A DNA stretch of 52,936 nucleotides, taken from sequence record MT764207.1; one strand, given 5' to 3'. Position 1 is the first letter of the stretch. Each line of letters starts with the position of its first letter. The translations under genes and the position numbers were made by a program. Shown here piece by piece: positions 6,356 through 28,483 of the stretch. The notes below the pieces were generated by a model. The model was not told where the DNA came from, did no database searches, and was given only the letters and a program-made list of their open reading frames with translations. This DNA comes from Escherichia phage JEP7.

Positions 6356-6806
6356 CGGGACATGTATTATTGGTGAAGAGTCTGGTACAGTTGACGGTAG
6401 TCCGTATGTTTACTTGCGCCCTGGCGACGCATATGACTTCGGACCTCCTCGAACCAGACAAGGCGCTGACGGCTTTGAGTACGTCAGTAAGCCTATGATG
6501 ACATCTGTACGTATTACAGCTGTCGGTAAGAATGCTGCTGAGCTAATGCGTAAGCTACACATAGCACTAGGTAGTTCACCAGCTAAGCAGTTTAACCGTT
6601 TACGACATTATGCAATAACCAAAATATCGAAGATTGATAATGTCGGTGGTGCTATCGGTGCAGGCTATGCCCAGAAGTCAATGATGACTGTTGACATTAG
6701 CTATGTGCATAAAGTTAAGATTGAGCAACCGTACATCTACAAGGTTGACATCACTTGTATGGATGATAACGGTAACAAAGCGACTGGTACAGTAGAGGAA
6801 CCGTAA
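6279..6806 (+). CDS. hypothetical virion protein
   Basis: ATG at 6279 preceded by GGAG; track ORF begins at a GTG at 6249; overlaps upstream gene. Confidence 0.3.
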   Translation: MATTTLQQFYIKDLRELVQKLLPLPDGTCIIGEESGTVDGSPYVYLRPGDAYDFGPPRTRQGADGFEYVSKPMMTSVRITAVGKNAAELMRKLHIALGSSPAKQFNRLRHYAITKISKIDNVGGAIGAGYAQKSMMTVDISYVHKVKIEQPYIYKVDITCMDDNGNKATGTVEEP

Positions 6807-7429
6807 TGGCAACTGGAGTAGACCCGGAACTGCAAGCGCAGCTGGATAAGCTAACAACTGCTGTCCAGCTCATTCATGACTTCGGTATGTCAGACGACCC
6901 AAACATCCCTAACCCGGAAGGTGGTGTCATACGCACACTCGAAGGCATTAACGCTGCAATTAACGAAGCTATACCAAACTTTGAAAATGCTAACGAAGCT
7001 GCTATCCAGGCGCGCGCTGCTCGTGATGTAGCTATTGCAGCCAAAGAAGCTGCAGAAACCGCAGCTGAACAGGCTACAGTATCTTCGACGTCAGCAATCT
7101 ATGAGTATGGCAATGTTGCAAGTGCAGCTACCGTAACTATACCTGCTGCATCTAAAACAATTGTTAGCATTACCCTTAATCAGCCAAACACCGTAATTAA
7201 TATCGGTAATGTATCTGACCCGTCTACTGTTGCGCGTCAGATTACTATTGCTATTAAGCAAGGTACTGGTTCTAACAAGGTGACCGCTTGGGATCCCAGA
7301 ATAAAATGGGCCAACAACAGGAAGCCCGTTCTGTCATTCCTTGTGGGTTACACAGATGTTGTTACGTTGCTGACCTTTGACTCAGGCGCAACTTGGATGG
7401 GTTTCTTTAACGGTGGATGGATTAAATAA
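6806..7429 (+). CDS. hypothetical virion protein
   Basis: 207 aa, Ala-rich helical N-terminal half; start overlaps upstream stop. Confidence 0.3.
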   Translation: MATGVDPELQAQLDKLTTAVQLIHDFGMSDDPNIPNPEGGVIRTLEGINAAINEAIPNFENANEAAIQARAARDVAIAAKEAAETAAEQATVSSTSAIYEYGNVASAATVTIPAASKTIVSITLNQPNTVINIGNVSDPSTVARQITIAIKQGTGSNKVTAWDPRIKWANNRKPVLSFLVGYTDVVTLLTFDSGATWMGFFNGGWIK

Positions 7430-10386
7430 TGCACACGATGTTGCTTAAAGACGGATCAGACCATCGAGCTAATGTCGAAAGCCTTATCGAAGGTCACCAC
7501 CATTTTCTTGAGCGCAATACTGGTAGAACTGACGACGCTACGCGTCAGCACTATATCTTCAACCCAGAAGGAGTAGTGTCGAACAACCGCCATTTTATTG
7601 CGCACACTATGATGGAGTACCAGCCTAACGGTGATGCTCCGTCTGAAAGTCAGTCGCTGCTGATACTCGGCGAAATTCACGCGTACCTTGCTACTAAGGA
7701 ACAGCGGTATCTGGACAAAGCAATTGAGTACTTCAATGCTTACGTCAAGTACTATTACGAGGGGGACCCAATCCCTGATACTCCTCGACGCTGGATCGCT
7801 AACTGGCTTTGTAATGGCAAAGAGCCTGTGCTAGCCAGCTTCCCGATCAACCCTGATTCACCAACACAGGGCGGCTATAAAAATGTGCCTGTTAAATTTG
7901 TTAACGGCAAAGCACAAATCCCTCATGGTTCTCCTTTCTGGGGCGAGTACCTGGATGTTGCTACTTGGGCCCACAGGGGGCACATGGCTTGGCCTGCTAT
8001 TAATGGTGGTGTCCGTGTTATTAAAAATAAAGTTGACTGGGACGATATTTACAACAATTATCGCATCACTACCATGCCAGCTGACCCGTGGAATCAGTTA
8101 GCCTGGATTGACTGGCCGAGGTATCTGGGTGAACCAAGCTACACTGTGGACTGGTCAGCTGCTGAACCTCCTGTACATCTCATCGAGTATATTGTTGCAT
8201 GGACCAATAACAAGATTGGTGTTCTGCCTGGCAAAAACGATGAGCTATGGGGAGGCGAGATTCTTGAGACTGGACTGCCTGACTCTCGTAGAGGTGAGAT
8301 TCAACTCCGTGACCACACTGTTAACGGTGTGTATCTGCTTAACTATGCCGTTAAGCTTCCTGTTGAACACGGTGGTTATTTGCTTAAGCGAAATGAAGTA
8401 TGGCACAACAGACCGGTAAACGTTCCATTGTACGGTGAGCTTCAACGCGGTAATGCTGCTGATGCTGAGTTGTGGTTCTGTGACTGCTGCTATATGCTGT
8501 GGCGAATTACTAACGAGCAAAAGTATTACAACGCTTGGCGAGCTGTCCTGTTTACACTGGAGGAGTATATTGATATTGATAAACAAGACCAGTTCTTCAG
8601 ACAAGACCCTCACGCGTCGTCTCCGTTTACTGATGGTATCTCTTATGATTGGACTTATCCTGAACTGGCACAAGCTATATATTCACGTGATGAAAATGGT
8701 TATATAGTTCTACGTCAGAACCAAAAAGCTCAATCATCTCTGGAGCAACAGGCTGTATGGTTTAAGTGTAAGCCAACAGCTAAGATACGTACCGAGGTTG
8801 GTGGTAAAGATGACGCTGGTCAGAATATCAGTGTCAAGGTGGAAATGTACATGAACCGTGAAAAGGTTGACGTCGAGCAAAACGTCTATCGTTTTGTCAC
8901 ACAGCTACCTGCTCTTGGTGCTTCTCCTGCTAACTACGACATTCCGTTAAGCGATTTTGTCGCAGGTACTAAGCCAGACGGTTCTGAGTATATCTTAGCT
9001 GATATTCGTTCATCCACTGATTATGGTAATGCCACTATTGCAGTGTCTTATCGTACTGACATACTCGACAACAGACGTGGCAACACTGTTCGTATGACTA
9101 TACCTGATAGTTCGTCAGGTGCCATTATAGGCTTTTGGTTACTGGAATCTTCCCAGGCACCTTTAAACTCGCTGACGTATACTTCTACAGGTCCGTTGTA
9201 CATCAAAGTAACTGACGCGCAAGGCTGGAGCTGGGTACGTGATTTACCTGCCGCATCAGGCTGGGTAACTCAGCAGATTCGTACATGGGAGTTCAGGCTG
9301 GCGTCATACCAGGAAAACCCAGGTACACCACCTACCAGCCCACAATTCGGCGAGATTAAGCAGTTCTCGTTTGTACTGCCTGACGGCGTTAATACGTCGA
9401 CAAGTATTAGCTGGTACTGTGTGAATGATGTTCCGCCTCGCTATAACTGGCCAATTGGTTACACGATTAAGTATCGTCTTACTTTCTCGGCTGATAACCC
9501 GTACACAGCTAAGCTAGGTGACTGTACTGTGCTGGACTATGAGAACGATAACCTTGCATATACGCCTGGTGTTATTCCGTTCTCCAACATTTATAACCCT
9601 GATTCTCAGCAGTTTGACGGCTGGCATGGTCTACCTTACCCTGGTTATCAGTATCCGTTTGTCTTTACGCATGATGATACTGCGGCTGGTACGACCAGAC
9701 TTAACAACATGGTTAACTTCTTATACGATTCTCAGCAATGGTACTTTAAGAAGTTTGGCCAGCTAGGTCCTGGCGCATCTGCTTTTATCTGGAACCGTTG
9801 GGATAACTTTAAATACGGTGTACCTGATACATTTACCATGTATCACTGGGGCAACGGTAGTGCATGGTCAGGTTACCAGCCTCGTGCTTACTTCTCCGCA
9901 GCACGTGGATGGTATGAGCTAGTAAACCGTGGTAAGCCGGTTCCGAGTAAGCTTATTGCTTACGTGGATAACTGGTCAAAATGGTTGCTTGACTTCATGG
10001 AAAGGTCAGGAGGTGTGTCACCTTCTAACTTCCCGCAAGAAGGTGTTGCTCTGCCAGTCCCTTCAGACTTCACAGGTCACATGTGTGGACTATGGCTTGC
10101 TGGAGCAGCTATGTCAGCCCTTTGTGGGTCAACAGTATCAGGACTTGATAAGCTGATGGATATGCTTGTCAATGAGCTAGAAGACCACTATGACCTAACT
10201 GGTATTCCGGGGCATGTAATGGATGGTGGTTGGTCGCCAGCGTTACGCCTTGAAACTGGTACAGGACCTGAAAGCAACGCCATGTACTATGGTTTTTACT
10301 CTGGCGAAATATTACGAGGGTTGGGCTTATACCTGCTATACAAAAACAAAGGGGCTAAAGCAGATATTTATGATTTAGGCCCGTAA
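7429..10386 (+). CDS. large Trp/Tyr-rich virion-associated protein, possibly carbohydrate-active
   Basis: 985 aa single ORF, very rich in W/Y/N/D/G; lies between neck genes and Ig-like proteins; no P-loop or other motif recognised. Confidence 0.3.
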   Translation: MHTMLLKDGSDHRANVESLIEGHHHFLERNTGRTDDATRQHYIFNPEGVVSNNRHFIAHTMMEYQPNGDAPSESQSLLILGEIHAYLATKEQRYLDKAIEYFNAYVKYYYEGDPIPDTPRRWIANWLCNGKEPVLASFPINPDSPTQGGYKNVPVKFVNGKAQIPHGSPFWGEYLDVATWAHRGHMAWPAINGGVRVIKNKVDWDDIYNNYRITTMPADPWNQLAWIDWPRYLGEPSYTVDWSAAEPPVHLIEYIVAWTNNKIGVLPGKNDELWGGEILETGLPDSRRGEIQLRDHTVNGVYLLNYAVKLPVEHGGYLLKRNEVWHNRPVNVPLYGELQRGNAADAELWFCDCCYMLWRITNEQKYYNAWRAVLFTLEEYIDIDKQDQFFRQDPHASSPFTDGISYDWTYPELAQAIYSRDENGYIVLRQNQKAQSSLEQQAVWFKCKPTAKIRTEVGGKDDAGQNISVKVEMYMNREKVDVEQNVYRFVTQLPALGASPANYDIPLSDFVAGTKPDGSEYILADIRSSTDYGNATIAVSYRTDILDNRRGNTVRMTIPDSSSGAIIGFWLLESSQAPLNSLTYTSTGPLYIKVTDAQGWSWVRDLPAASGWVTQQIRTWEFRLASYQENPGTPPTSPQFGEIKQFSFVLPDGVNTSTSISWYCVNDVPPRYNWPIGYTIKYRLTFSADNPYTAKLGDCTVLDYENDNLAYTPGVIPFSNIYNPDSQQFDGWHGLPYPGYQYPFVFTHDDTAAGTTRLNNMVNFLYDSQQWYFKKFGQLGPGASAFIWNRWDNFKYGVPDTFTMYHWGNGSAWSGYQPRAYFSAARGWYELVNRGKPVPSKLIAYVDNWSKWLLDFMERSGGVSPSNFPQEGVALPVPSDFTGHMCGLWLAGAAMSALCGSTVSGLDKLMDMLVNELEDHYDLTGIPGHVMDGGWSPALRLETGTGPESNAMYYGFYSGEILRGLGLYLLYKNKGAKADIYDLGP

Positions 10387-11092: not shown

Positions 11093-11103
11093 GGAGCTGA
11101 TTG

Positions 11104-13233
11104 ATGTCGCTTCCACTTAATGAGGTTGTCGACGTCCAGTTCAGTAAGAGCAACGGGGGTAAAGGTTTTACCCCCAATGTTCCGCTGGAAGGTATAATGC
11201 TTTCTAACTACGAGTACTCAATCGTCGCGGGTGATGACCCTGTTCAGCTAGTTGTGCGTTACATTCCAACCAACGCTACTGAGCGTGGTATGGCATGGAA
11301 ATCTAGCGACCCGGACGTTATCACTGTTGATGAGCTCGGATTTGTGAAGCCACTGGCGGAAGGTGTTGCATACGTGACTGGTACGTCTGTTGACGGCGGT
11401 TATACAGTACGGGCAAAGTTTAACATTGCTCGGGCACCTATCCTTGTTGAATCTGTTACAGTGTCTCCCACAAGTGTGACGCTTGAAGAGGGCAAGACTC
11501 AACGCCTGACATACACCTATTTACCTGCTAATGCAGACAAACCTGATTTCTACTGGATTTCAGACGATGAGTCTGTTGCTATAGTTAACGACAGCGGGCT
11601 TGTCACTGCCATTGGAGATGGCGAAACAACTGTAAACGTGCAGTACGGTGTTGACAGCTCTATATTCGATAGCTGTACTGTAACTGTTATTCCGCCTGTT
11701 GTACACGTTACAGGAGTTGAGTTTCTTACTCAGTCGCCTATTAACGTTAATATCGGAAGCACAGCTGGTACTAGTATTCGTATATCGCCAGAAGATGCCA
11801 CTGACAAAACAGTGACATACGAAAGCAGTGCGCCTGATGTAGCAACTGTGGATACTGACGGAAATGTTACTGGTATTATAGCTGGTAATGCCACTGTTAC
11901 TGTTAAGACGAATGACGGTGATAAGACTGACACTCTTGACATTATAGTCAGGGTACCTGCTGTAAATGTTACAGGTGTAAGTATTGATGAAGGCGATACA
12001 GCTTCTATGGAGGTTGGTGACACGCTTCAGCTACATGCCACTGTGACTCCTGAAAATGCTACTGACCCGTCTGTTGTATGGAGTGCTCCTGTATCAGAAG
12101 TTGCGTCTGTGACTGAAGCTGGTTTGGTAACCGCTAACGCTGCAGGTTTAATTGATGTTACTGTTATCACTAATGATGGGAACTTTACTGATAGAATCGA
12201 GGTTAAAGTTACAGACCCCAGAATCGCAGTTACGGATGTTGCATGGGCTCCTGACTCTCCGACTAAAGTAAGTGCCGGCCATCAGGTGCAAACTAAAATT
12301 GTTATAACACCTGACAACGCAACTAACAAAAAAGTTAGCTACAATAGTTCAAACCCAGACGCTGTTACTGTTGACACTAACGGAGTTATATACGGCCAAT
12401 CTCCTGGAACTTCGACTATTACAGTTACAACAGACGACGGTGGACTTGTTGCTTCGTTTGTAGCGACTTGCACAGAGGTGGCTGTTATTACACCAGATGG
12501 TCTTGGTGGTATTCCAGTAGGTGGTACTCAGCAGTTCACTTACACTGTTAACCAGTCTGACGCTGAGCTGACTAATATTCGTTATGAGTCTGCTGACCCA
12601 GCTATTGCAACTGTTGATTCATCAGGCGTTGTAACTGGTGTTGCTAGCGGCGGATGTAACATCTGGATTTACGCAACTAGTAATGGTGCTGACATTAGCG
12701 CAGCTACTTGGGCACAAATTTCTGAGAGGGTACAGGTCTATCCGCAGTATGCTGAATGGCTTGTGGGTAACACCAAACAACTTGATGTTGAGATCTATCC
12801 GTCGGACTCTAAGAGCGTTACTGTTACTTATAGCTCGTCAGATGACTCTATAATTAGTGTAGATGCAAATGGCTTGATGACTGCTAAGTCTGAAGGTTCA
12901 GCAACTATTACTGCTAACGTTGTAATGAACGGTGTTGCTGCTTCTGGTACAACATCTCCTTACGTGTCTGAGCTTTCTGTTACTACGGATTCGCTGCCTG
13001 CACTTACTGTTGGTAACACGCAGCAGCTCGTTGTAACTGTTAGACCTGAATACGCTAAGACAGACGCAGGCTATAGCATTCAGTATACAACTACAGACGA
13101 TACTGTCGCTACTGTAAGTAATGCTGGTGTTATTACTGGTGTTGGTAGTGGTGGATGTCGTATTGGTGCCACAGTAACTGTGAGAAACGCTACAGCGTCG
13201 GACAGCTCTTATCAGTCCGTCGATGCAGCATAA
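11104..13233 (+). CDS. multi-domain Ig-like (BIG2) repeat protein
   Basis: about 709 aa with at least six tandem Ig-like repeats of the same pattern; ATG at 11104 with AGGAG RBS (track starts at a TTG at 11101). Confidence 0.6.
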   Translation: MSLPLNEVVDVQFSKSNGGKGFTPNVPLEGIMLSNYEYSIVAGDDPVQLVVRYIPTNATERGMAWKSSDPDVITVDELGFVKPLAEGVAYVTGTSVDGGYTVRAKFNIARAPILVESVTVSPTSVTLEEGKTQRLTYTYLPANADKPDFYWISDDESVAIVNDSGLVTAIGDGETTVNVQYGVDSSIFDSCTVTVIPPVVHVTGVEFLTQSPINVNIGSTAGTSIRISPEDATDKTVTYESSAPDVATVDTDGNVTGIIAGNATVTVKTNDGDKTDTLDIIVRVPAVNVTGVSIDEGDTASMEVGDTLQLHATVTPENATDPSVVWSAPVSEVASVTEAGLVTANAAGLIDVTVITNDGNFTDRIEVKVTDPRIAVTDVAWAPDSPTKVSAGHQVQTKIVITPDNATNKKVSYNSSNPDAVTVDTNGVIYGQSPGTSTITVTTDDGGLVASFVATCTEVAVITPDGLGGIPVGGTQQFTYTVNQSDAELTNIRYESADPAIATVDSSGVVTGVASGGCNIWIYATSNGADISAATWAQISERVQVYPQYAEWLVGNTKQLDVEIYPSDSKSVTVTYSSSDDSIISVDANGLMTAKSEGSATITANVVMNGVAASGTTSPYVSELSVTTDSLPALTVGNTQQLVVTVRPEYAKTDAGYSIQYTTTDDTVATVSNAGVITGVGSGGCRIGATVTVRNATASDSSYQSVDAA

Positions 13234-19359: not shown

Positions 19360-20006
19360 TGTCAGCTATTGATTATAATACAGCAACACTTGACGAGGCC
19401 ATTGAAGCTGCACTGTTTGCCGCAATGATTGGTAAGCGCCACTGTTTACCTGGTCGTATAGTATCGTTTAACAGTGACCTACAGACTGTTGTTGTTGAGC
19501 CTATGGTTAGCGCCGAAAACGAAGATGGTTCAATGAGACCACTACCACCAGCAGCTGATGTTCCTTTATTCCAGCTAGGCGGTGGTGATTTTGTTATAAC
19601 GCTTGAACCAAAGAAAGGCGACCCGTGCTTACTTCTTGTTGCCGACAGATGTATTGACGTATGGTATGAGCTGGCTGAAAACGCTATACCAGGTGACTTC
19701 CGACAGAATGACCTGTCAGACTGCTTCTGTCTTGTGGGCTTCAGACCTAAGCCTCTGAAGATAACAAACTGGATGGAAGGCGTAACTATCCGTAAGGTTG
19801 ACGGAAGTCACTATATCAATATTAATAATGCTGGCAAGGTATCGATAAAGGCTACAGTAGTGGACTTGCTTGATACACCAACACTTAATGCACCAAACAC
19901 AGAAGCCAAGTTTAAAGAAGTTGACATTGGCGGCGTTAAGATGTCCAAACACAGACACCAAGAAAATGGTGACGGTGGCGGTATTACTAATGGCCCGCAA
20001 AACTAG
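19359..20006 (+). CDS. baseplate spike protein (gpV-like, putative)
   Basis: 215 aa, His-rich C-terminus (KHRHQENGDGGG); synteny with W- and J-like genes. Confidence 0.35.
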   Translation: MSAIDYNTATLDEAIEAALFAAMIGKRHCLPGRIVSFNSDLQTVVVEPMVSAENEDGSMRPLPPAADVPLFQLGGGDFVITLEPKKGDPCLLLVADRCIDVWYELAENAIPGDFRQNDLSDCFCLVGFRPKPLKITNWMEGVTIRKVDGSHYININNAGKVSIKATVVDLLDTPTLNAPNTEAKFKEVDIGGVKMSKHRHQENGDGGGITNGPQN

Positions 20007-20016
20007 GTAACCCACA

Positions 20017-20388
20017 ATGCGAACTAGACGACTCGATTCAAACTGGGACTGGAATTTTGGGCGTGGCCGACTTGACTACGCCGATACGTCTGAGTCCATT
20101 GAACAACGCATCGTGCAGATACTCCGCTGTTATACTATGGACTGGGTACATGACCTGGACTATGGTATTGACTGGTTCGGACTAATGGAGAAGCCTGTTC
20201 GATGGGCTGACCTGGAAGCTGCAATCAAGACAGCAATACTTGCGGAGTATGGAGTTAGTTCTATCGAGAGCTTTACCCTAAGCTTCGACCCTGACTCACG
20301 TCACGCTGTTTATTCGGTTGAGGTTAATGATATTTACCACAACACAACCTCTATTAACAGAAGTATTAATTTAACCGGAGAAAACTGA
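20017..20388 (+). CDS. baseplate wedge protein (gpW/gp25-like, putative)
   Basis: 123 aa small protein immediately upstream of J-like gene. Confidence 0.35.
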   Translation: MRTRRLDSNWDWNFGRGRLDYADTSESIEQRIVQILRCYTMDWVHDLDYGIDWFGLMEKPVRWADLEAAIKTAILAEYGVSSIESFTLSFDPDSRHAVYSVEVNDIYHNTTSINRSINLTGEN

Positions 20389-21560
20389 TGGGCTCTGTAA
20401 CTAGCACAGGCTATGTTCCCGTCAAGCTCGACGACTGGATCAGCAGATTCGAAACGCTCTTCCGTCGTGTGTACGGCGCGGATATTGATTTGTCAGCTAA
20501 GTCTGCTGACGGACAAATGGTTGGTATTCTGGCGCAGATGTTTGCAGACCAGGACGAGCAAGTTGCAATTCTGTTTTCTATGCTTGACCCTAACCAGGCA
20601 TCTGGTGTATACGTAGACCAGTTCCTTGCCTACGTAGCGCTTCAGCGTAAAGGCGAGATGTCAACGCTGTTGACCAGGGTTAAGATCGAAGGTGACCGTA
20701 ACACTATTATACGTACTCCTTACTATGTAACTGACAGCTCGAATAACGTGTACCAGCTTAACTCCACTGTTGCGCTGGATGATAACGGTGTAGTCGAAAC
20801 AAGCTTCAGTTCTGTTAAGACTGGCCGCTTTGTCGTACTTGCAAACGATGAGCTTAAACCACAGACCATCGTTTCTGGCGTGCGTAAAGTTACCAACATG
20901 CAAGTGTCATCTGGCGGTGCGTCCACTGAGCTCGACTCTGAGGCAATAGACCGGGCGTATAACTCTTACGGCAAACCTGGCACGAACAGCTTAGACGGTA
21001 TTGTTGCTGAGATTCGTCAGATGACTGATGTTATCGCGTGTAACGGTTACGAGAACGAAGAAGATACTCGGGACCCGTTAACTGGCTTACCTCCTCACAG
21101 TATGCAGATTGTTGTGGATGGTGGTTCGCCTGCTGCTATTGCTGACTGTATCTTCCGTCGTAAAACTAATGGCTGTAAGCAGATTGGCACTGTGTCTTAT
21201 CAGATTACGGATAAGTCAGGTACACAGCGCACAATGAAATGGAGTCAGCCTACTTATGTTGAGGCTTATGCTTCACTCGTTGTAGCCCGTAAGGAACTGT
21301 TTACCGACGTTTCCGAGGAACTTATTAAGAATGCTATTCTGTCCAAGGTATACAATATCGGTGAAGAGGTATCAACCTACGAACTGGGTCAGCTAATTCA
21401 AGAAGCGAATGGCGTAAGCCCTAACTTCTACATCAAGACTTTCTTTGTGGGTAAATCAGCTAATCCGTCGACAGATACGATTCTGCGTATCACTGCTCTT
21501 GAGCGTGCAATATTCGCTGCAGACCGTATCACTATTGCAGTGGTGAATGCTGATGGCTGA
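20388..21560 (+). CDS. baseplate J-like protein (putative)
   Basis: 390 aa; position between W-like and I-like genes upstream of tail fibre. Confidence 0.4.
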   Translation: MGSVTSTGYVPVKLDDWISRFETLFRRVYGADIDLSAKSADGQMVGILAQMFADQDEQVAILFSMLDPNQASGVYVDQFLAYVALQRKGEMSTLLTRVKIEGDRNTIIRTPYYVTDSSNNVYQLNSTVALDDNGVVETSFSSVKTGRFVVLANDELKPQTIVSGVRKVTNMQVSSGGASTELDSEAIDRAYNSYGKPGTNSLDGIVAEIRQMTDVIACNGYENEEDTRDPLTGLPPHSMQIVVDGGSPAAIADCIFRRKTNGCKQIGTVSYQITDKSGTQRTMKWSQPTYVEAYASLVVARKELFTDVSEELIKNAILSKVYNIGEEVSTYELGQLIQEANGVSPNFYIKTFFVGKSANPSTDTILRITALERAIFAADRITIAVVNADG

Positions 21561-22206
21561 ATATCATAAACTACTTATTCAACAGTACGCTGATAAACCA
21601 AAAGCTGTTGCAACTATTAAGGGCTTCGATGATGCAATTCAAGGTATCTGGGACGGCGCCCAACAAGTTGTTGATAGCCTTAATATAGATAAAGCTTTTG
21701 GTAAAGGTCTTGATAATGTTGCAGCCCGCGTCGGTGCATCTCGTGTTCTCAAGAAAGGCGTAGACCGTAAGTTCTTCGGCTTTACCAACAAAGTACCAGA
21801 CGTGCTTGGCTTCGGTGGTTCGTCTGGTAATAAAGGTGGCCCGTTCTATCGCTACGGTGCATCAGTTTGGGACCCGGTAATTCTTGACGACATTGACCTG
21901 CGTACTTACATCAAGATGAAAATCTGGAAGAACATGCAAGACGGTACTATGCCGTATCTAATTGACTTCCTGATTGAATTCTTCGGAATGAATAACTTCG
22001 TTATAACTGACAACGAAGATATGACAATGACTCTGGAGATATACAGTACTCTGACTCCGCTTAAACAAGTGTTGATTCAGAACTATGATATTCTTCCGCG
22101 CCCCACAGGGGTGAAGATTGAACTTAACACGAGCGTTGACGTCACGGATAGTCTGTACCGTTACGCTACTGTAAACTTACCAGCACAGGTGAATGTATAT
22201 GGCTGA
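21547..22206 (+). CDS. baseplate/tail protein (gpI-like, putative)
   Basis: 219 aa; overlaps both neighbours; synteny. Confidence 0.3.
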   Translation: MLMAEYHKLLIQQYADKPKAVATIKGFDDAIQGIWDGAQQVVDSLNIDKAFGKGLDNVAARVGASRVLKKGVDRKFFGFTNKVPDVLGFGGSSGNKGGPFYRYGASVWDPVILDDIDLRTYIKMKIWKNMQDGTMPYLIDFLIEFFGMNNFVITDNEDMTMTLEIYSTLTPLKQVLIQNYDILPRPTGVKIELNTSVDVTDSLYRYATVNLPAQVNVYG

Positions 22207-23533
22207 TGTACAAACAAGACCCGATAACGACATCTTCGCCAGCTCCGCGGGTACTGGTGAACTGCTGCCGTTCGGTGACCTTGCTCGTGGCTGGGGTGCA
22301 ACCCTTGGCTACTCAGAAGGTATTCCTCCGATGGAGTGGTTTAACTTTATCGGTAACCGTACTGACAAAGGTATCCACTACATCCTTCAGCAGGGTGTTG
22401 ATATATGGGTAGAAACTGAGACCTACCCGGTTGGTGCACTGGTTAAAGTTAACGCCGACAATATGCTGTACCGTTGTCTGGTGCAGAACATTAATATGCC
22501 ACCGTCTGCTAACCCTACACAGTGGCGTCCTGTACTTGACCTGACAGCTGCATCTGCTGCAGCACGACAGGTTGGTAAAGCCTCTGGTAACGTAATCCAG
22601 GTCGGTGCATTTGGCTTAGGCGGCAACGCTGAGGTAGTTACTAATGCTAACAGCATTGTAAACGACGGTATCTACCAGCTTCCAGCGTCAGGTACGGGCG
22701 GACCTACTAACGGCGTTGAGACTGAGATTCTGCATATCAACTGGGATGAGAAAAACGCTTCACAGTGGGGACGCACCAAGGGTAAGCGCGTAATAGCCAT
22801 GCGCGAGAAGGTTAACAATACCTGGGGCGGATGGTCATACTCTTACGGGCCTGACAATAAACCTACTGCCTCTGAGCTGGGTATTAATCAGGACTTCATC
22901 CCTATGGATGGTTCTGACTCAATCCGAGGTAACTTAGGTACTGTCGGCTGGCTGCATATTGCACGTACTACTTCCGACTTGCTACGTGCTGCTAACTCCG
23001 CCGGCGTAGGTACTGTTGAGTACTCCGGTAACATCGCAGGCGGTACTGCTGTTCAGGAGTTGCTGACTTCGGTTTCTGTTGCGGCTAACAGTAATGTTAT
23101 CACTGCGGCTCGCTGGGGTTCTGTGCCTATGTCACATATCCAGCACCTTCTTACGGCAGGTGGCGCTACCCAGATTAACATGGCGGTATGTCGCCCTGGT
23201 GGTATTGCCGACCGCCGTACAGTAGCTTTGCAGGTGGATGGCCTTAACAGCCGAGTAACTACCACAAATAGCTTTATTTTATGCGAGAATGGTGTTAGAG
23301 TATATTCACCTAACAACCCGCAGCCTATCGATACTTCAGCCGGTAACGTTCGGGGTATTCGACTCGGCGCTCGTATTGCTGCTGGTGTATCCGAGTCAAC
23401 GTTCTACCCTGGGCATGTAATGACTGGCTGGCGCTTCGGCAATAAGAAAGAGCTGCGTGGTGGTACATACTGGTCAGCGCCGTTACAGTATTATATCAAC
23501 GGCACTTGGATTAACGTAAGCAACGTATCGTAA
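22193..23533 (+). CDS. tail fibre protein
   Basis: 446 aa, Gly/Ala/Thr/Ser-rich; followed by two tail-fibre-assembly-like genes. Confidence 0.5.
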   Translation: MYMADVQTRPDNDIFASSAGTGELLPFGDLARGWGATLGYSEGIPPMEWFNFIGNRTDKGIHYILQQGVDIWVETETYPVGALVKVNADNMLYRCLVQNINMPPSANPTQWRPVLDLTAASAAARQVGKASGNVIQVGAFGLGGNAEVVTNANSIVNDGIYQLPASGTGGPTNGVETEILHINWDEKNASQWGRTKGKRVIAMREKVNNTWGGWSYSYGPDNKPTASELGINQDFIPMDGSDSIRGNLGTVGWLHIARTTSDLLRAANSAGVGTVEYSGNIAGGTAVQELLTSVSVAANSNVITAARWGSVPMSHIQHLLTAGGATQINMAVCRPGGIADRRTVALQVDGLNSRVTTTNSFILCENGVRVYSPNNPQPIDTSAGNVRGIRLGARIAAGVSESTFYPGHVMTGWRFGNKKELRGGTYWSAPLQYYINGTWINVSNVS

Positions 23534-23542
23534 AGGTTTATT

Positions 23543-24085
23543 ATGACTAAGCATAAGGTGTTCCGTAACTTTACCATGTACCATCCTGAGGTAACAGAAG
23601 AGAACGAGAACATTGTAAATGCTGGTGCAATCTTCCTCAAGGATGAGGAAGGTCGCGACTGGTACAATCTAGCAAAAGAGTTCGCTATCAAATACGAAGG
23701 CGCAACGTTCTTGCAGGTAGATAAGAACGGAGTTGTAATTGCCGCACATACCGACCCGACTATGTTCCATCCTGTGGGCTGCGATATGGTTGTAACGTAC
23801 GACCCGCCCTTCAACATCTTCGAGACGGTTGGCGAATGGCTGTTTGACGGTAAAGAGTTTACGCTTAACGCACCAATGATGAAGGAGATTGCTCGTGAGC
23901 GTAAAGAACAAGCTCTGTCCATCGCTTCGACCAAGGTCAGTGTTTTACGCGACACAGTTGATAGTGGCAATGCTACCGATGAAGAAAAAGAGCTATTTGC
24001 TAAGTGGCGTGATTACAGGATTGCTGTCAATCGTCTTGACATTAACCTTGGTTCCGCTATGGTTGTTCCACCTATGCCGGAGTAA
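23543..24085 (+). CDS. tail fibre assembly protein (putative)
   Basis: 180 aa; paralog of next gene (shared ...FLKDEEGRDWYNLAKEFA... vs ...FIKDNNGNDWRKLAKELA...); position after fibre gene. Confidence 0.5.
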   Translation: MTKHKVFRNFTMYHPEVTEENENIVNAGAIFLKDEEGRDWYNLAKEFAIKYEGATFLQVDKNGVVIAAHTDPTMFHPVGCDMVVTYDPPFNIFETVGEWLFDGKEFTLNAPMMKEIARERKEQALSIASTKVSVLRDTVDSGNATDEEKELFAKWRDYRIAVNRLDINLGSAMVVPPMPE

Positions 24086-24088
24086 ACC

Positions 24089-24592
24089 ATGCAACTGTCA
24101 TTTTTCAACTTTACAGAATACAACCCACAAAGGACAGCGGAGACACTTCCGCTGATTAAGCAAGGCGTTGTATTCATCAAGGATAACAATGGTAATGACT
24201 GGCGCAAGCTGGCTAAAGAGCTGGCTAAGAATAAAGAGCTGGTTCATTACATTGTTGTGGACAAGTACAATGCTGTTGCCGCGTATGCTAACGATCCTAC
24301 GCTACTGTTTCCTGTTAATTGCGATTTGCATATTGTTGAGTCTGTCCCTGCTGATAAGTTTGCGGATTGCTATTACGAGTGGTCTTACGTTAATGGCAAA
24401 TTCGTTAAGCACTCAGAACTGCAGAAGGTGATTGCAGAAGAACGCCTGCAGGAAGAACAGGCTTGGGTTGAAGGACAACTCGACACTGAAGAAGATGAGG
24501 AACGTATTATCGCTCTCCATAAATTCCGTGCCGATTTGTTGCTGCTTGTTATGTCAGATGCGCCGCATATCGACTGGCCTGTACGACCGTAA
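24089..24592 (+). CDS. tail fibre assembly protein paralog (putative)
   Basis: 167 aa; paralogous to 23543-24085. Confidence 0.45.
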   Translation: MQLSFFNFTEYNPQRTAETLPLIKQGVVFIKDNNGNDWRKLAKELAKNKELVHYIVVDKYNAVAAYANDPTLLFPVNCDLHIVESVPADKFADCYYEWSYVNGKFVKHSELQKVIAEERLQEEQAWVEGQLDTEEDEERIIALHKFRADLLLLVMSDAPHIDWPVRP

Positions 24593-24599
24593 CTAATTG

Positions 24600-24640
24600 C
24601 TACCAGCAAGCTTGTGCAGTTGCTGGTAGTGTTTCTTTTA
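24600..24640 (+). terminator. rho-independent terminator (putative)
   Basis: CTACCAGCAA / TTGCTGGTAG 10-bp stem with 10-nt loop followed by TGTTTCTTTT, just after the stop of 24089-24592. Confidence 0.5.
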
Positions 24641-24660
24641 CGCTTGAGTCGTGCTATAAT
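24632..24660 (+). promoter_or_regulatory. promoter with extended -10 (TGcTATAAT)
   Basis: TGCTATAAT at 24652-24660 upstream of holin start. Confidence 0.4.
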
Positions 24661-24694
24661 CCACTCTGGGTATACAATAAACCGGAGATATGGG

Positions 24695-24955
24695 ATGTTT
24701 GACTACAACGACAAGTCTTCCCTTATTGGCCAGTTTGTGGCTTGGGTAACAATAACAGTAAGTACTTTATCACTAAGTGATTGGGGTACTCTTATCGGTA
24801 TACTCAGTTCCTTGGTGATGCTGATTGTTGTTACGTATAACCAAACACGGCGAACCAAAATTATGTCGGATTATTACAATCGTAAGAAGCCGATAGAGGA
24901 TGAAGTCGCATCGAAAGAAGAGGTGTTGCGTGAGTCTGAAATCAGCAGCGACTAA
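24695..24955 (+). CDS. holin (class II-like)
   Basis: 86 aa from ATG 24695 (RBS GGAGAT); two hydrophobic helices (LIGQFVAWVTITVSTLSL, WGTLIGILSSLVMLIVV) and charged C-terminus; directly upstream of lysozyme. Confidence 0.6.
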   Translation: MFDYNDKSSLIGQFVAWVTITVSTLSLSDWGTLIGILSSLVMLIVVTYNQTRRTKIMSDYYNRKKPIEDEVASKEEVLRESEISSD

Positions 24956-25475
24956 AGGAGGTTGCAGCGTGCTGGCTATCATCGGGCTTGTATTGTCGAT
25001 GACGAGTACACATGTCCGTACTAATAAAGAAGGTCTTGAAATAATCGGTAATGCAGAAGGTTGTATGCGCAACCCGTATGTATGTCCTACTGGTTACTTA
25101 ACAGTTGGCATTGGTAGCCGCATCTACAGCGATGAGCCCGCTGTACGGCGCGAAGGCCTGACAGACCAGGAGATTGCTGACCGCTGGGTCAAGAATATTC
25201 AAGAGGCTGAAAAGTGTGTTAATGACTGGTTTCACGGTAAAGACATGAACACCAACCAGTTCAGCGCCATGACCTCTATGGTATTTAACCATGGTTGCAC
25301 TAGACTCCGTAAGAACAAGGATGGTTCACCTACCAAAATATATACTGCTGCTCGTAAACAAAACTGGACGGAAATGTGTAACCGCATAACTGACTGGGAT
25401 ATGGGCGGCAAGTACAGGGGCTTGACAATACGTAAGCAAAAGGAAAAAGCGTTATGTCTAAAACCGGTGCAATAA
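24900..25475 (+). CDS. endolysin, lysozyme family with N-terminal signal-anchor (SAR)-like segment
   Basis: catalytic-region pattern EGLEIIGNAEGCMRNPYVCPTGYLTVGIG resembles T4/P21-type lysozymes; N-terminal Gly/Ala-rich weakly hydrophobic segment GGCSVLAIIGLVLSMTST; alternative GTG starts at 24930 and 24969 (the latter with AAAGGAGG RBS). Confidence 0.7.
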   Translation: MKSHRKKRCCVSLKSAATKGGCSVLAIIGLVLSMTSTHVRTNKEGLEIIGNAEGCMRNPYVCPTGYLTVGIGSRIYSDEPAVRREGLTDQEIADRWVKNIQEAEKCVNDWFHGKDMNTNQFSAMTSMVFNHGCTRLRKNKDGSPTKIYTAARKQNWTEMCNRITDWDMGGKYRGLTIRKQKEKALCLKPVQ

Positions 25476-25783
25476 TTGCAGCTATTCTCGGCATCGCCAT
25501 TGTGTTCTTGTCTTTGTGGGTACGTGAGCTGAAAGATGATGTTGCCGATCGCGACTGTACAATCAAACAGCTTAACAAAACCAATGGCGAATTGTCTGCT
25601 GCTAATCAAACGCTGATTAATTCCGTAAAGGATGAGCGTGAGGCTTCAGCCAAACGCGCTAGTAAGATAGCTGAGCTTGAGCAACAACTGCGTGACAGGA
25701 AAGGTAAATATGACGAAGCTACAAAAGATGATTCGTGCGCTAATACCGTTGCTCCTTCTGCCGTTCTTGACCTCATGCGCTGA
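25454..25783 (+). CDS. i-spanin (Rz-like)
   Basis: 109 aa; N-terminal transmembrane helix (GAIIAAILGIAIVFLSLWV) then charged coiled-coil periplasmic domain; follows endolysin. Confidence 0.6.
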   Translation: MSKTGAIIAAILGIAIVFLSLWVRELKDDVADRDCTIKQLNKTNGELSAANQTLINSVKDEREASAKRASKIAELEQQLRDRKGKYDEATKDDSCANTVAPSAVLDLMR

Positions 25784-25985
25784 TAAACCTGAAGTTGTTT
25801 ATGTTGACAGGATAGTCAAGGTTTATCCGCCTGGCGCATACATGGTTAAATGTCATAAGCCTGAATTAACCGGTAACACCTGGAAAGCAATAGGTCAGTT
25901 AGCTATTGAACGTGGAACAGCTCTTGATGATTGTGCAGACAAGATGGACAGCATAATTGACTGGAGTAACAAAGGGGCCGAGTGA
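25710..25985 (+). CDS. o-spanin (Rz1-like lipoprotein)
   Basis: ATG 25710 in the +1 frame inside/overlapping the i-spanin; signal peptide MTKLQKMIRALIPLLLLPFLTSC with lipobox LTSC. Confidence 0.55.
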   Translation: MTKLQKMIRALIPLLLLPFLTSCADKPEVVYVDRIVKVYPPGAYMVKCHKPELTGNTWKAIGQLAIERGTALDDCADKMDSIIDWSNKGAE

Positions 25986-26002
25986 AGGCCCCTTCATTTA
26001 TT
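25974..26002. terminator. bidirectional terminator hairpin between convergent gene blocks
   Basis: GGGGCC-GAGTGAA-GGCCCC hairpin flanked by A-run upstream and TTCATTTATT downstream, at the junction of + strand lysis genes and - strand genes. Confidence 0.55.
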
Positions 26003-26225
26003 AGCGTTTACCTTTTAGTTCGTTATACTGCGCACACGCTGCACACAGCACTGTACCGGGTAAAAGCTGACGTCGTTTTTCTTCAATGTCTTCCCCACAC
26101 TGGTAGCACGTCAGCGGGCTTACTCCGGTGTATCTTACTCGGTTCGATAGTGCTGCGTCCCGGGCAACTTGTTCAGCTTCAGAAGCCATATCAGTAATGT
26201 CCGATGTGCGCATAGACTCAATCAT
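26001..26225 (-). CDS. DksA/TraR-family C4 zinc-finger protein
   Basis: 74 aa with CxxC-N17-CxxC (CYQCGEDIEEKRRQLLPGTVLCAACA) characteristic of the TraR/DksA zinc finger. Confidence 0.6.
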   Translation of the reverse strand: MIESMRTSDITDMASEAEQVARDAALSNRVRYTGVSPLTCYQCGEDIEEKRRQLLPGTVLCAACAQYNELKGKR

Positions 26226-26500
26226 TATTTTCCCTCTTCTTCACAATACAGGGTTTCTAATTCATCGCATAGCTGTTGCGTCCAGTAATCATCCTCGCCA
26301 CGTATCTGGAAGCACAGCACAGGAATATCCTGTCGTAAAATATCGCTCTTGTAAATCTTTTTGGCAACAGCTTCTGGTTCTTCCTGGAATATCTTCATAA
26401 ACCAGTCCAGGCCTGACGTGCAGCCTGAGGCGTCTAGTATCTCCTTCGCCCTTAACTTAAGCGTTTCATCTACCTTATACTCTAAACCTATATTAGACAT
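26225..26500 (-). CDS. hypothetical protein
   Basis: 91 aa ORF, ATG overlapping downstream stop. Confidence 0.3.
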   Translation of the reverse strand: MSNIGLEYKVDETLKLRAKEILDASGCTSGLDWFMKIFQEEPEAVAKKIYKSDILRQDIPVLCFQIRGEDDYWTQQLCDELETLYCEEEGK

Positions 26501-26515
26501 ATCATAGACCTTTAA

Positions 26516-28483
26516 TTAGTGCGCCTCTGCCCAGTTACTTTCTATCTTAGCATCAGTAAGAACAGGTACACGAAGCGGTAGCACAGTTTCCATGACCCGT
26601 ACGAAATCGTAGAATCCATCTTCTGCTTGCTTACCAGTTGGTAGAGAGAAGTTAAGCTCATCGTGTACCGTCAGGCGAGGCACGCCAATCACGTCGAAGT
26701 AACCGTCTTCATACCCTTTCAGCATTGCAGACTTCATCTGGTCTGCTGACGACCCTTGCAGCACTCGGTTGATTGCTTTGTGGGTGTCTGCCAGTTTAAT
26801 GTTTGGGCCATACTCCTGACGTGCTTCTTCAAATGGCAAAGGCGTCTTCCCGAATCCACCACGTTTTGGGACCCATTTGTTGAACCACGTTTTCCGGCCC
26901 ATAAAGGTTTCTACATACCCCTGGCTATAACATAAATCTTCATAATGCTTCATGGTAGCACCAATGAATGGTGCACCCTGATGGTACGCCTTCAGAACAG
27001 GTTCTGCTTCTTCAGGTGTCATTGCTAACTTACGGGCAAGAGCATTAAGCATCATGCCGTACAACAAACCAAAGTTGATGGTCTTAGCCGGTTTACGCTC
27101 TATAACGTGACCTGAGGCTTCCTTGATAATATCGACCATAACATTGTGGTAATCTGCTTCCGGGTTAGCCGCGAAAATTGCTCGTAACTCATCAGCGCCC
27201 GGGCCGACTGCAAAATGCGCCATGAATCTATATTCAATTTGGGCGTAGTCTGCGGATCCCCATCGGTGTCCGACATCCGGTACGAAACAAGCACGAAGGA
27301 GTGGTCCCAGTATTTTGTGTCTAGACGGTATATTCTGCAGATTAGGGTCAGATGAGCTAAACCGACCACTAACGGTTCCACCGTCATCACCGCGCATTTG
27401 ATGGAATTGACCGTGAAGGAAGCCATTTGTATTCATCCCCAATATATAGCCACGAATAAACGTGGACTGGATTTTTTCATAAGACTTAATCTCAGACACC
27501 AGTTCCGCAAACGGATGGTGCAAGCCTGCTAAGAAGTCCGCTGTAAACGACGGATTACCCGCCGCTGTTTTGAAGTACTCCAGACCTAAATGGTCAAATG
27601 CAAGTGCTAAATCAGGACCGGAGTTAACGTTAATGTTAAAGCCAATCTGGTCTTTAATCTGCTGGTGCATTTTCCTTATTTCAGCGCTAAGCGTATCATC
27701 CGCCTCTTTGGCTTTGTCAAGGTCAACACGCACACCTGCAAAACGCATCTTAAGCATTAATGGAATGAGCTTGCACTCCATATAGAATACGTCTGTTAAA
27801 CACCAGCGACTTAACAAAGGCCACTGGGCTTTGATAATGTGTATTGGTAAGTCGGCGTCAGATTCAGCGTAGTAACCCACAAGACGAGGAGGTGTTTTGT
27901 AGATGTACTTTCTGGCTTCACCTGTTGGCTTACAACCATAAGCATCTGAAATCCATTGGTACATCTCAGCTGAGTCTTTACCTTCGCCTACATACTTTCG
28001 TCCAAGTCCTTCAAGTGCAACACGCGCGCCTGGGTCGAGTAATGCTTCCGCGAATTGTACATCCATGCACAATCCTTTGACTTCCACGCCTTCTGCTGCA
28101 AGCCAGCCCAAGTCATATGTGATGTTAGCACCGACTTTAACTTGGTTAGGTCGCGAGAGTTCGAGCCGAAGCCAACCAAGTACTTCCTCAGCTGGAAGGT
28201 TATCCTCTTCGCCGAGCTCGTGTCTGATTGGGTAGTAAGCCTTGAAGCCATTGTCCGTAGCGATACTAACTCCAACGATATGACCTTCCCTCCTGGCCCA
28301 ACCACTACCATTTGCATCCATCCCTGGGTCATATGTTTCACAGTCAAGACCGATAATCTTCGCAGAAGACAAATCCGGGTAATGCGCGCGCGGCCGCCAT
28401 CCAGTATCCCTGACGTATGGTATAGGACGGTTGATAGGTTTAACATTCTTTGCACCTTCAAAGCTATCGAATAAAAAGCTCAT
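26516..28483 (-). CDS. DNA polymerase, family A (PolI-like) with 3'-5' exonuclease domain
   Basis: 655 aa; polymerase motif A (DYAQIEYR), motif B (KTINFGLLYGM), motif C (TVHDELNF); N-terminal exonuclease-like region (GLDCETYD). Confidence 0.9.
   Translation of the reverse strand: MSFLFDSFEGAKNVKPINRPIPYVRDTGWRPRAHYPDLSSAKIIGLDCETYDPGMDANGSGWARREGHIVGVSIATDNGFKAYYPIRHELGEEDNLPAEEVLGWLRLELSRPNQVKVGANITYDLGWLAAEGVEVKGLCMDVQFAEALLDPGARVALEGLGRKYVGEGKDSAEMYQWISDAYGCKPTGEARKYIYKTPPRLVGYYAESDADLPIHIIKAQWPLLSRWCLTDVFYMECKLIPLMLKMRFAGVRVDLDKAKEADDTLSAEIRKMHQQIKDQIGFNINVNSGPDLALAFDHLGLEYFKTAAGNPSFTADFLAGLHHPFAELVSEIKSYEKIQSTFIRGYILGMNTNGFLHGQFHQMRGDDGGTVSGRFSSSDPNLQNIPSRHKILGPLLRACFVPDVGHRWGSADYAQIEYRFMAHFAVGPGADELRAIFAANPEADYHNVMVDIIKEASGHVIERKPAKTINFGLLYGMMLNALARKLAMTPEEAEPVLKAYHQGAPFIGATMKHYEDLCYSQGYVETFMGRKTWFNKWVPKRGGFGKTPLPFEEARQEYGPNIKLADTHKAINRVLQGSSADQMKSAMLKGYEDGYFDVIGVPRLTVHDELNFSLPTGKQAEDGFYDFVRVMETVLPLRVPVLTDAKIESNWAEAH

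What the first reader, a model, noticed from the sequence alone, without database searches (positions are those of the whole stretch)
23543..24592. Tandem tail-fibre-assembly paralogs downstream of a single fibre gene
Two same-strand paralogous chaperone-like genes follow the only tail fibre gene. Paired fibre and chaperone genes often reflect alternative host-range cassettes; here only the chaperone is duplicated, which may indicate a lost second fibre or a second chaperone client elsewhere (for example the 985-aa protein or the Ig-like proteins).
Basis: inference. Interest (0 to 1): 0.3.

Follow-up and report, generated by a model that had tools for sequence, protein, structure and literature searches.

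The report
Two fibre-assembly chaperones, one tail fibre
This Salmonella/E. coli phage carries two related helper genes for folding its single tail fibre, an arrangement already annotated and discussed for this phage group, and only the first helper is swapped together with the fibre tip when relatives change tips.

Summary
ORFs 23543-24085 (Tfa1, 180 aa) and 24089-24592 (Tfa2, 167 aa) lie on the same strand directly after the fibre gene 22193-23533. They are homologous: BLASTP E=1e-24, 38% identity; family profiles align at 99.3% probability. Both belong to the Mu gpU / P2 gpG tail-fibre-assembly family.

The window is a Rosemountvirus (BP63-like). The same fibre-Tfa-Tfa layout occurs in about 45 Rosemountvirus and about 10 Loughboroughvirus genomes. 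It is annotated in GenBank and was discussed for phage S144 (PMC7432712). It is therefore already known.

What I add:
- The two genes are not a recent duplicate pair.
- Tfa1 has a lineage-conserved canonical C-domain. Its N-domain is replaced together with the last ~60 fibre residues in relatives.
- Tfa2 is a separate lineage, topologically nearest phi92 gp148 but with weak support. It keeps 75% N-domain identity across a tip switch and lacks the family's LxDAxxxGxAT hairpin motif.
- Both genes are under purifying selection (dN/dS about 0.09).
- Sister phages (KE25, SOI901) have one Tfa but the same other tail proteins.
- No second fibre tip, inverted repeats or fibre remnant exists in the window.

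The "lost fibre / other client" reading is not supported. The most likely reading is a tip-specific chaperone plus a tip-independent auxiliary one.

The parts
22193..23533 (+). Tail fibre gene (446 aa). The N-terminal ~385 aa form a conserved shaft / baseplate-attachment region.
   Evidence: PHROG 30316, 1054 bits. It is 60-74% identical to fibres of Loughboroughvirus and KE25-like phages. dN/dS is 0.064.
23297..23326 (+). Codons for the RVYSPNNPQP motif (aa 369-378; nine of its ten residues are invariant across the 7 aligned fibres). It marks the left edge of the exchangeable tip cassette.
   Evidence: Listed among invariant columns in the 7-fibre alignment. DNA identity to L090 falls from ~75-80% to 30-45% just after it.
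23348..23533 (+). Variable fibre tip (aa 386-446), here 'type A'. It is 77% identical to the last 60 aa of phi92 gp147.
   Evidence: Tip identity is only 31-36% to S144, L090 and KE25 despite 83-92% (L090) or 70-92% (S144) identity in the shaft.
23543..24085 (+). tfa1 (180 aa), a canonical Mu-gpU-type tail fibre assembly protein. The N-domain (aa 1-~98, nt 23543-23836) varies with the tip. The C-domain is a helical hairpin carrying the LRDTVDSGNAT motif.
   Evidence: Pfam Caudo_TAP 2.5e-13, above the curated cut-off. phmmer to 5yvq_B gives 4e-11. AF2 pLDDT is 96.9, with helices 110-140 and 146-163. N-domain identity to orthologs is 27-29% and C-domain 49-61%. dN/dS is 0.088.
24079..24082 (+). 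GGAG ribosome-binding site for tfa2, placed just before the tfa1 stop codon (TAA 24083-85) and 6 nt before the tfa2 ATG. This suggests translational coupling.
   Evidence: Read directly from the sequence. The function is inferred.
24089..24592 (+). tfa2 (167 aa), a divergent Tfa paralog nearest the phi92 gp148 type. It has the Mu Tfa N-domain fold and a shortened C-terminal hairpin that lacks the conserved LxDAxxxGxAT motif.
   Evidence: PHROG 136, 2.9e-31. Pfam Caudo_TAP scores only 17.6 bits, below the 22.1 cut-off. AF2 pLDDT is 94.6 and Foldseek finds 5yvq_B at E=1.7e-7, TM 0.76. The 11-12-aa deletion is unique to this clade among ~50 homologs. It is 69% identical to L090 Tfa2 across a tip switch. 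dN/dS is 0.087.
24600..24639 (+). Terminator-like hairpin (CTACCAGCAA / TTGCTGGTAG) followed by a T-rich run. It closes the tail operon after tfa2.
   Evidence: Sequence. RNA fold gives -18.9 kcal/mol, z=-2.9. The function is inferred.
24652..24660 (+). Extended -10-like element (TGCTATAAT) ahead of the holin gene (24695-24955).
   Evidence: Sequence. The S144 record annotates a promoter at the equivalent spot. Consensus match only.

Best explanation
The last three genes of the tail operon are one Mu-gpS-like tail fibre and two Mu-gpU/P2-gpG-family assembly chaperones. They appear to be co-transcribed and translationally coupled. Tfa1 is the cognate, tip-specific chaperone. Its N-terminal fibre-binding domain is exchanged as one recombination unit with the last ~60 residues of the fibre. 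Its canonical C-terminal helical hairpin drives trimerisation. Tfa2 is a second, older Tfa lineage, topologically nearest phi92 gp148. It lies outside the exchange unit, is retained unchanged when the tip is replaced, and has a trimmed hairpin. It most likely acts as a tip-independent auxiliary chaperone for the same fibre, either on a conserved part of the fibre or together with Tfa1. It is probably not the helper of a lost or distant second fibre. Shown here: homology, family membership, fold, conservation, selection, cassette boundaries, and absence of a second tip. Inferred: the division of labour and any physical binding.
For: - Homology and family.
- Domain roles (variable N-domain binds the tip, conserved C-domain trimerises, 3:3 complex): established for Mu TfaMu and Pam3 gp25, as cited in PMC9608196 and PMC11990801.
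- Natural experiment, window versus metagenomic relative L090. The backbone is 83-93% identical. The tip is 31%, Tfa1 N-domain 29% and Tfa1 C-domain 49%, but Tfa2 N-domain is 75% and C-domain 62%. DNA identity collapses only between ~23,330 and ~23,900, that is from the SPNNPQP motif to the Tfa1 domain boundary.
- The window tip is 77% identical to the phi92 gp147 tip, and the window Tfa1 N-domain is closest to phi92 gp148 at 40%.
- Trees: the Tfa1 C-domain clade has 100% bootstrap and the Tfa2 clade 95% (C-domain) and 77% (N-domain).
- Both genes are intact in all six Rosemountvirus-core sequences checked, with dN/dS of 0.088 and 0.087 against 0.064 for the fibre. Full-length matches occur in ~45 Rosemountvirus records.
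- Only two Tfa genes and one tip exist in the whole window.
Against: - No experiment addresses either gene in this genus.
- Sister phages KE25, KE26, vB_SE1_KM, SOI901 and L015 build a 60%-identical fibre with one Tfa, so Tfa2 is not structurally obligatory.
- Tfa2 lacks the most conserved motif of the family, so it may not work as a classical Tfa at all.
- Tfa2 is only 41-44% identical between genera, so it is not strictly conserved.
- N-domain/tip coupling is loose elsewhere: KE25 versus SOI901 has tip 38% but N-domain 52%.
- Deep branches of the domain trees have weak bootstrap support of 5-25%.
Confidence: 0.5

Rival explanations
1. Orphan chaperone. Tfa2 is a leftover from an earlier tip cassette. 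An incoming 'tip + Tfa' module was inserted upstream of the resident phi92-type chaperone instead of replacing it. Tfa2 is now largely dispensable.
For: Tfa2 resembles phi92 gp148 in both domains (28-36% in the N-domain, 34-41% in the C-domain), and the phi92-type tip is present in the window. In S144 and L090 the tip is of another type while Tfa2 stays phi92-like. Single-Tfa relatives exist. The signature motif is lost.
Against: Tfa2 was intact in every genome examined across two genera that differ by 56% in this protein. dN/dS of 0.087 is as low as for tfa1. It has a tight RBS and a coupled start. Compact lytic phage genomes seldom keep useless genes for that long (general knowledge).
Confidence: 0.2
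2. Second client. Tfa2 folds a different virion protein, such as the 985-aa tail protein, the 207-aa 'fibre' or the Ig-like proteins.
For: Tfa2 does not co-vary with the fibre tip. Other fibre- or spike-like proteins exist at 6806-7429 and 7429-10386.
Against: KE25 keeps homologs of all these proteins (79%, 54%, 45%, 38% identity) with a single Tfa. None carries a tip-like C-terminus. Between genera the 207-aa and 985-aa proteins are 77-82% identical versus 44% for Tfa2. Tfa genes normally sit beside their client (established for Mu, P2, lambda).
Confidence: 0.12
3. Alternative cap or adhesin. Tfa1 or Tfa2 stays on the fibre tip, as Mu gpU does. This would give two fibre populations with different receptor preferences and contribute to the Salmonella/E. 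coli polyvalence of these phages.
For: Mu Tfa remains on the virion and contributes to receptor recognition (cited in PMC9608196). In this window both N-domains are of the phi92-like class that matches the tip. Near-identical phages are reported on both Salmonella and E. coli.
Against: Virion mass spectrometry of S144 detected neither chaperone (PMC7432712). There is no direct evidence.
Confidence: 0.12
4. Remnant of an invertible or dual fibre cassette (S-U / U'-S') whose second fibre half was deleted.
For: Mu and P1 carry two U-type genes per genome.
Against: Both genes are on the same strand. There are no flanking inverted repeats. No tip remnant exists in any frame. The layout is identical in about 55 genomes.
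Confidence: 0.03

Closest known systems
Salmonella phage S144 ORF31-ORF32-ORF33 (Loughboroughvirus; Gambino et al. 2020, PMC7432712)
   Same: The gene order is identical: fibre, chaperone 1, chaperone 2, then holin. ORF32 and ORF33 are orthologous to Tfa1 and Tfa2 (43% and 44% identity). Both were already described as Mu-gpU-like chaperones.
   Different: The fibre tip is a different type (32% identity) and the Tfa1 N-domain differs (27%). In S144 the two chaperones are only ~23% identical to each other, against 37-38% in the N-domain here.
Phage Mu gpS-gpU (PDB 5YVQ; North et al. 2019)
   Same: Same protein family and two-domain architecture. The Tfa2 model superposes on the TfaMu N-domain (TM 0.76), and Tfa1 matches by sequence (4e-11).
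   Different: Mu has one U per fibre variant, arranged as inverted alternative cassettes. Here two same-strand genes serve one fibre, and Tfa2 lacks the conserved C-domain motif.
Phage phi92 gp147-gp148
   Same: The tip is 77% identical over the last 60 aa. gp148 is the nearest non-orthologous relative of Tfa2, and its N-domain is the nearest to that of Tfa1.
   Different: phi92 has a single chaperone with the hairpin motif intact and a different fibre shaft.
KE25 / vB_SE1_KM / Erwinia phage SOI901 (single-Tfa sister lineage)
   Same: Same baseplate-fibre synteny, with a fibre 60-62% identical. Their Tfa C-domain is nearest to that of Tfa1.
   Different: They carry only one Tfa gene, and the lysis genes follow directly.
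T4 gp38 + gp57A
   Same: Two chaperones are needed for one fibre, one specific and one general. This is analogous to the proposed division of labour (discussed in PMC7432712).
   Different: The T4 proteins are unrelated to each other and to the Tfa family. Here the two are homologs.

Membership tests
Caudo_TAP / Mu gpU-P2 gpG tail fibre assembly proteins (PF02413, PHROG 136) | Significant match to the family profile | tested here: met
   Tfa1: Pfam 50.7 bits (cut-off 22.1) and PHROG 136 at 2e-43. Tfa2: PHROG 136 at 2.9e-31 over the full length, but Pfam only 17.6 bits, below the cut-off. Its 69% ortholog P0002 carries a precomputed PF02413 hit.
Caudo_TAP / Mu gpU-P2 gpG tail fibre assembly proteins (PF02413, PHROG 136) | Two-domain architecture: an N-terminal alpha/beta fibre-binding domain with the TfaMu fold, plus a C-terminal helical hairpin | tested here: met
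   AF2 models have pLDDT 94.6 and 96.9 with the same order of secondary-structure elements. Tfa2 versus 5yvq_B gives E=1.7e-7, TM 0.76. The Tfa1 fold was not searched, but phmmer to 5yvq_B gives 4e-11.
Caudo_TAP / Mu gpU-P2 gpG tail fibre assembly proteins (PF02413, PHROG 136) | Conserved C-domain motif (LxDAxxxGxAT) at the hairpin turn | tested here: not met
   The motif is present in Tfa1 (LRDTVDSGNAT). In Tfa2 and its orthologs it is deleted, uniquely among ~50 homologs aligned. Tfa2 is therefore an atypical member.
Caudo_TAP / Mu gpU-P2 gpG tail fibre assembly proteins (PF02413, PHROG 136) | Gene immediately downstream of, and co-oriented with, its fibre gene | tested here: met
   There are 9-nt and 3-nt gaps, all on the + strand, with a terminator-like hairpin only after tfa2.
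Caudo_TAP / Mu gpU-P2 gpG tail fibre assembly proteins (PF02413, PHROG 136) | Binds the fibre C-terminus and is required for fibre trimerisation | not testable with these tools
   This needs co-expression, pull-down or genetics. Only indirect co-variation evidence exists for Tfa1.
Invertible host-range cassettes (Mu G segment, P1 C segment) | Two fibre-tip/Tfa sets in opposite orientation, bounded by inverted repeats | tested here: not met
   Both Tfa genes are on the + strand. The longest inverted repeats are 15-25 nt at 76-88% complementarity and are not placed at cassette edges. Only one tip is present.
Invertible host-range cassettes (Mu G segment, P1 C segment) | Adjacent serine invertase (Gin/Cin) | not tested
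   No dedicated search was run. The neighbouring genes are lysis genes and a DNA polymerase.
T4-type gp57A/gp38 chaperone pair | Sequence relationship to gp57A or gp38 | tested here: not met
   PHROG and Pfam hits of both proteins are to tail-fibre and Tfa-type families or families of unknown function. No family annotated as gp38 or gp57A appears.

The most novel reading that the evidence does not exclude
Tfa2 defines a distinct class of Mu-type chaperone that has lost the signature hairpin motif and works independently of tip type. Rosemountvirus and Loughboroughvirus would then run a two-tier system of homologous chaperones: a generalist that stays, and a specialist that is swapped with the tip. 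That arrangement would buffer the phage during host-range cassette exchange.
Probability: 0.3. Interest if true: 0.45.

Novelty: already known. Interest (0 to 1): 0.2.

Why it matters
The practical value is modest. Rosemountvirus and Loughboroughvirus phages are being developed for Salmonella and E. coli biocontrol. Host-range engineering by tip swapping needs to know which chaperone must travel with the tip. The comparison suggests the exchange unit is fibre aa ~380 to the end plus the Tfa1 N-domain (window ~23,330-23,900), and that tfa2 can stay in place. It also shows that the tandem pair is not a recent duplication, and it flags Tfa2 as an atypical family member worth one knockout experiment.

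Tried and rejected
- Second fibre or tip elsewhere. A tip HMM and a PLQxxINxxW motif scan over all six frames found only the known fibre. A Tfa HMM found only the two genes.
- Similarity of the 207-aa and 985-aa proteins to the fibre. None was found. The 985-aa protein has no PDB sequence relative and no Pfam domain.
- Invertible-segment relic. No suitable inverted repeats were found.
- Recent gene conversion between tfa1 and tfa2. Only 15-18-nt imperfect direct repeats were found.
- A 'third Tfa' in phage LPSEYT. It is a 127-bp tandem duplication of the tfa1/tfa2 junction, not a gene copy.
- Word-indexed protein search with Tfa2. It returned only two clusters. The exhaustive search was needed to reach distant homologs.
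- Literature search for 'two tail fiber assembly proteins/chaperones'. Nothing relevant turned up beyond the S144 paper. The SD286 'gp38' paper concerns a different, 123-aa protein.
- First tree attempt with Biopython bootstrapping timed out and a second attempt crashed. I redid it with a numpy distance matrix. Deep nodes remain weakly supported.

Full report
**Observation.** The window carries ORFs at 23543-24085 (180 aa, Tfa1) and 24089-24592 (167 aa, Tfa2). Both are on the + strand and follow the 446-aa fibre gene 22193-23533. BLASTP of the two gives 38% identity over ~120 residues, E=1e-24. A profile-profile comparison of the two ortholog families gives 99.3% probability, E=8.6e-21, over the whole length. 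Both match PHROG 136 'tail fiber assembly protein' end to end. Tfa1 passes the Pfam Caudo_TAP cut-off, but Tfa2 does not (17.6 versus 22.1 bits).

**Identity of the window.** The region is 97-99% identical to about 45 Rosemountvirus genomes (BP63, SPLA2, LSE7621, CF2 and others). Several records already annotate 'tail fiber assembly protein (x2)'. Gene coordinates equal those of OM313461.1. For the sister genus Loughboroughvirus, Gambino et al. 2020 (PMC7432712) describe the same trio: a fibre ORF31 plus two Mu-gpU-like chaperones ORF32 and ORF33. They note that neither chaperone was found in virions by mass spectrometry, and they leave the need for two open. The finding is therefore already known at the descriptive level.

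**Anatomy.**
- tfa1 starts 9 nt after the fibre stop.
- tfa2 starts 3 nt after the tfa1 stop, with a GGAG site directly abutting that stop.
- After tfa2 comes a hairpin plus T-run (-18.9 kcal/mol, z=-2.9). An extended -10-like element then precedes the holin. The S144 record annotates a promoter at the equivalent position.
- The three genes therefore close the tail operon.
- AlphaFold2 models are confident (pLDDT 96.9 and 94.6). Both show the same alpha/beta N-domain followed by a helical hairpin.
- The Tfa2 model's only significant PDB match is the Mu chaperone N-domain, 5yvq_B (E=1.7e-7, TM 0.76). Tfa1 matches the same chain by sequence (4e-11).

**What is known of the family.** In Mu TfaMu and Pam3 gp25 the variable N-domain binds the fibre tip. 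The conserved helical C-domain mediates trimerisation, in a 3:3 complex (PMC9608196 and PMC11990801).

**Domain-wise comparison.** The similarity between Tfa1 and Tfa2 in this window lies in the N-domain (37-38%). The C-domains are only 20-23% identical.

| Comparison across genera | N-domain | C-domain |
|---|---|---|
| Tfa1, window vs S144 | 27% | 61% |
| Tfa2, window vs S144 | 40-41% | 49-50% |

- The Tfa1 N-domain is nearest to phi92 gp148 (40%), not to its own orthologs.
- The fibre's last 60 residues are 77% identical to the C-terminus of phi92 gp147. They are only ~32% identical to the S144 tip, which instead resembles the KE25 tip at 71%.
- Tfa2 orthologs all lack 11-12 residues. The deletion removes the family's most conserved motif (LxDAxxxGxAT) at the hairpin turn.
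- Among ~50 homologs from an exhaustive search of 1.84 billion representatives, only the Tfa2 clade has this full deletion.
- In the models, the hairpin helices are 26 and 15 residues in Tfa2, against 31 and 18 in Tfa1.

**Natural experiment.** A metagenomic relative, L090 (53.9-kb contig), has the same backbone as the window but a third tip type.

| Segment, window vs L090 | Identity |
|---|---|
| Wedge protein | 93% |
| Fibre aa 1-385 | 83-91% |
| Fibre tip | 31% |
| Tfa1 N-domain | 29% |
| Tfa1 C-domain | 49% |
| Tfa2 N-domain | 75% |
| Tfa2 C-domain | 62% |

DNA identity collapses only from ~23,330, just after the conserved RVYSPNNPQP motif, to ~23,900, near the Tfa1 domain boundary. It recovers before tfa2. 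The unit that is swapped is therefore 'tip + Tfa1 N-domain', and tfa2 lies outside it.

**Distribution and selection.**
- A sister lineage has the same synteny and a 60-62% identical fibre, but a single Tfa followed by the lysis genes. It comprises KE25, KE26, vB_SE1_KM, Erwinia phage SOI901 and IMG/VR L015.
- KE25 still encodes homologs of the 985-aa protein (79%), the 207-aa protein (54%) and the Ig-like proteins. Those proteins therefore do not require a second Tfa.
- Within six Rosemountvirus genomes, dN/dS is 0.088 for tfa1 and 0.087 for tfa2, against 0.064 for the fibre. Both genes are maintained by selection.
- Neighbour-joining trees per domain recover a Tfa1 C-domain clade (100% bootstrap) next to the single-Tfa lineage.
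- They also recover a Tfa2 clade (95% on the C-domain, 77% on the N-domain) next to phi92-like chaperones.
- The window's Tfa1 N-domain groups with phi92-like sequences. The deeper nodes are weak, at 5-25%.

**Interpretation.** The pair is not a recent tandem duplication, and it is not the footprint of a lost fibre.
- There is no second tip in any frame.
- There are no cassette-type inverted repeats.
- There is no third Tfa gene.

The best-supported reading has two parts. Tfa1 is the tip-matched chaperone. Tfa2 is a lineage-conserved, tip-independent auxiliary chaperone with an altered oligomerisation hairpin. The main rival is an orphan chaperone left over from an earlier phi92-type tip. That rival fits the sequence affinities, but it sits poorly with long-term purifying selection. 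The roles themselves are inferred; no tool here can test binding.

**Verdict.** This is a correct observation of an already annotated and published arrangement. The small added value is the cassette boundary and the atypical nature of Tfa2. Interest is low (0.2).

Noticed in passing
L002 (MH181876.1, LPSEYT) 4061-4287: The 'third' tail fibre assembly protein annotated in phage LPSEYT is a 65-aa fragment. It was created by a 127-bp direct tandem duplication of the tfa1-end/tfa2-start junction, which could be real or an assembly artefact.
   Followed up: yes
window 20000-27000 vs L003 (OM313461.1): The window has exactly the length and gene coordinates of vB_EcoM_PiR. It nevertheless differs by 269 substitutions in 7001 bases, with no indels. 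The differences come in patches, dense at 20,034-21,479 and then none until 22,735. Locally the best match is SPLA2 at 99.1%.
   Followed up: partly
window 6806-7429 and 7429-10386: A 207-aa 'tail fiber' (PHROG 27998) and a 985-aa tail protein (PHROG 2871) sit between the connector and sheath genes. The S144 record notes similarity of its 985-aa homolog to phi92 gp141. They form a second candidate receptor-binding module with no Pfam or PDB sequence match. SPLA2, the closest match, is reported to depend on cellulose, whereas its congener SPLA11 depends on LPS (PMC10949491).
   Followed up: partly
window 11101-13233: A 710-aa protein with eight Big_2 Ig-like repeats is the most divergent structural protein between genera apart from the Tfas. 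It is 49% identical to S144 and 38% to KE25.
   Followed up: no
L005/L092 (PP856724.1 KE25), L009, L008, L015: Phages filed as Rosemountvirus (KE25, KE26) share only ~50-88% protein identity with the core genus in most structural proteins. They carry a single Tfa and a different fibre segment at aa 300-350. They look like a separate genus-level lineage together with Erwinia phage SOI901.
   Followed up: partly
phage collection hits: One record labelled 'Listeria phage 220426122051' is 97% identical to this enterobacterial phage. 'Campylobacter phage A150/A110a' records carry phi92-like chaperones. These are probably host mislabels or contamination.
   Followed up: no
window 24614-24955: The longest ORF for the holin starts at GTG 24614 (113 aa). 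However, the holin profile match covers only residues 31-110 of the long form, and GenBank annotations use ATG 24695, which has a GGAG site at 24684-24687. The upstream extension overlaps the terminator-like hairpin and is probably not translated.
   Followed up: partly
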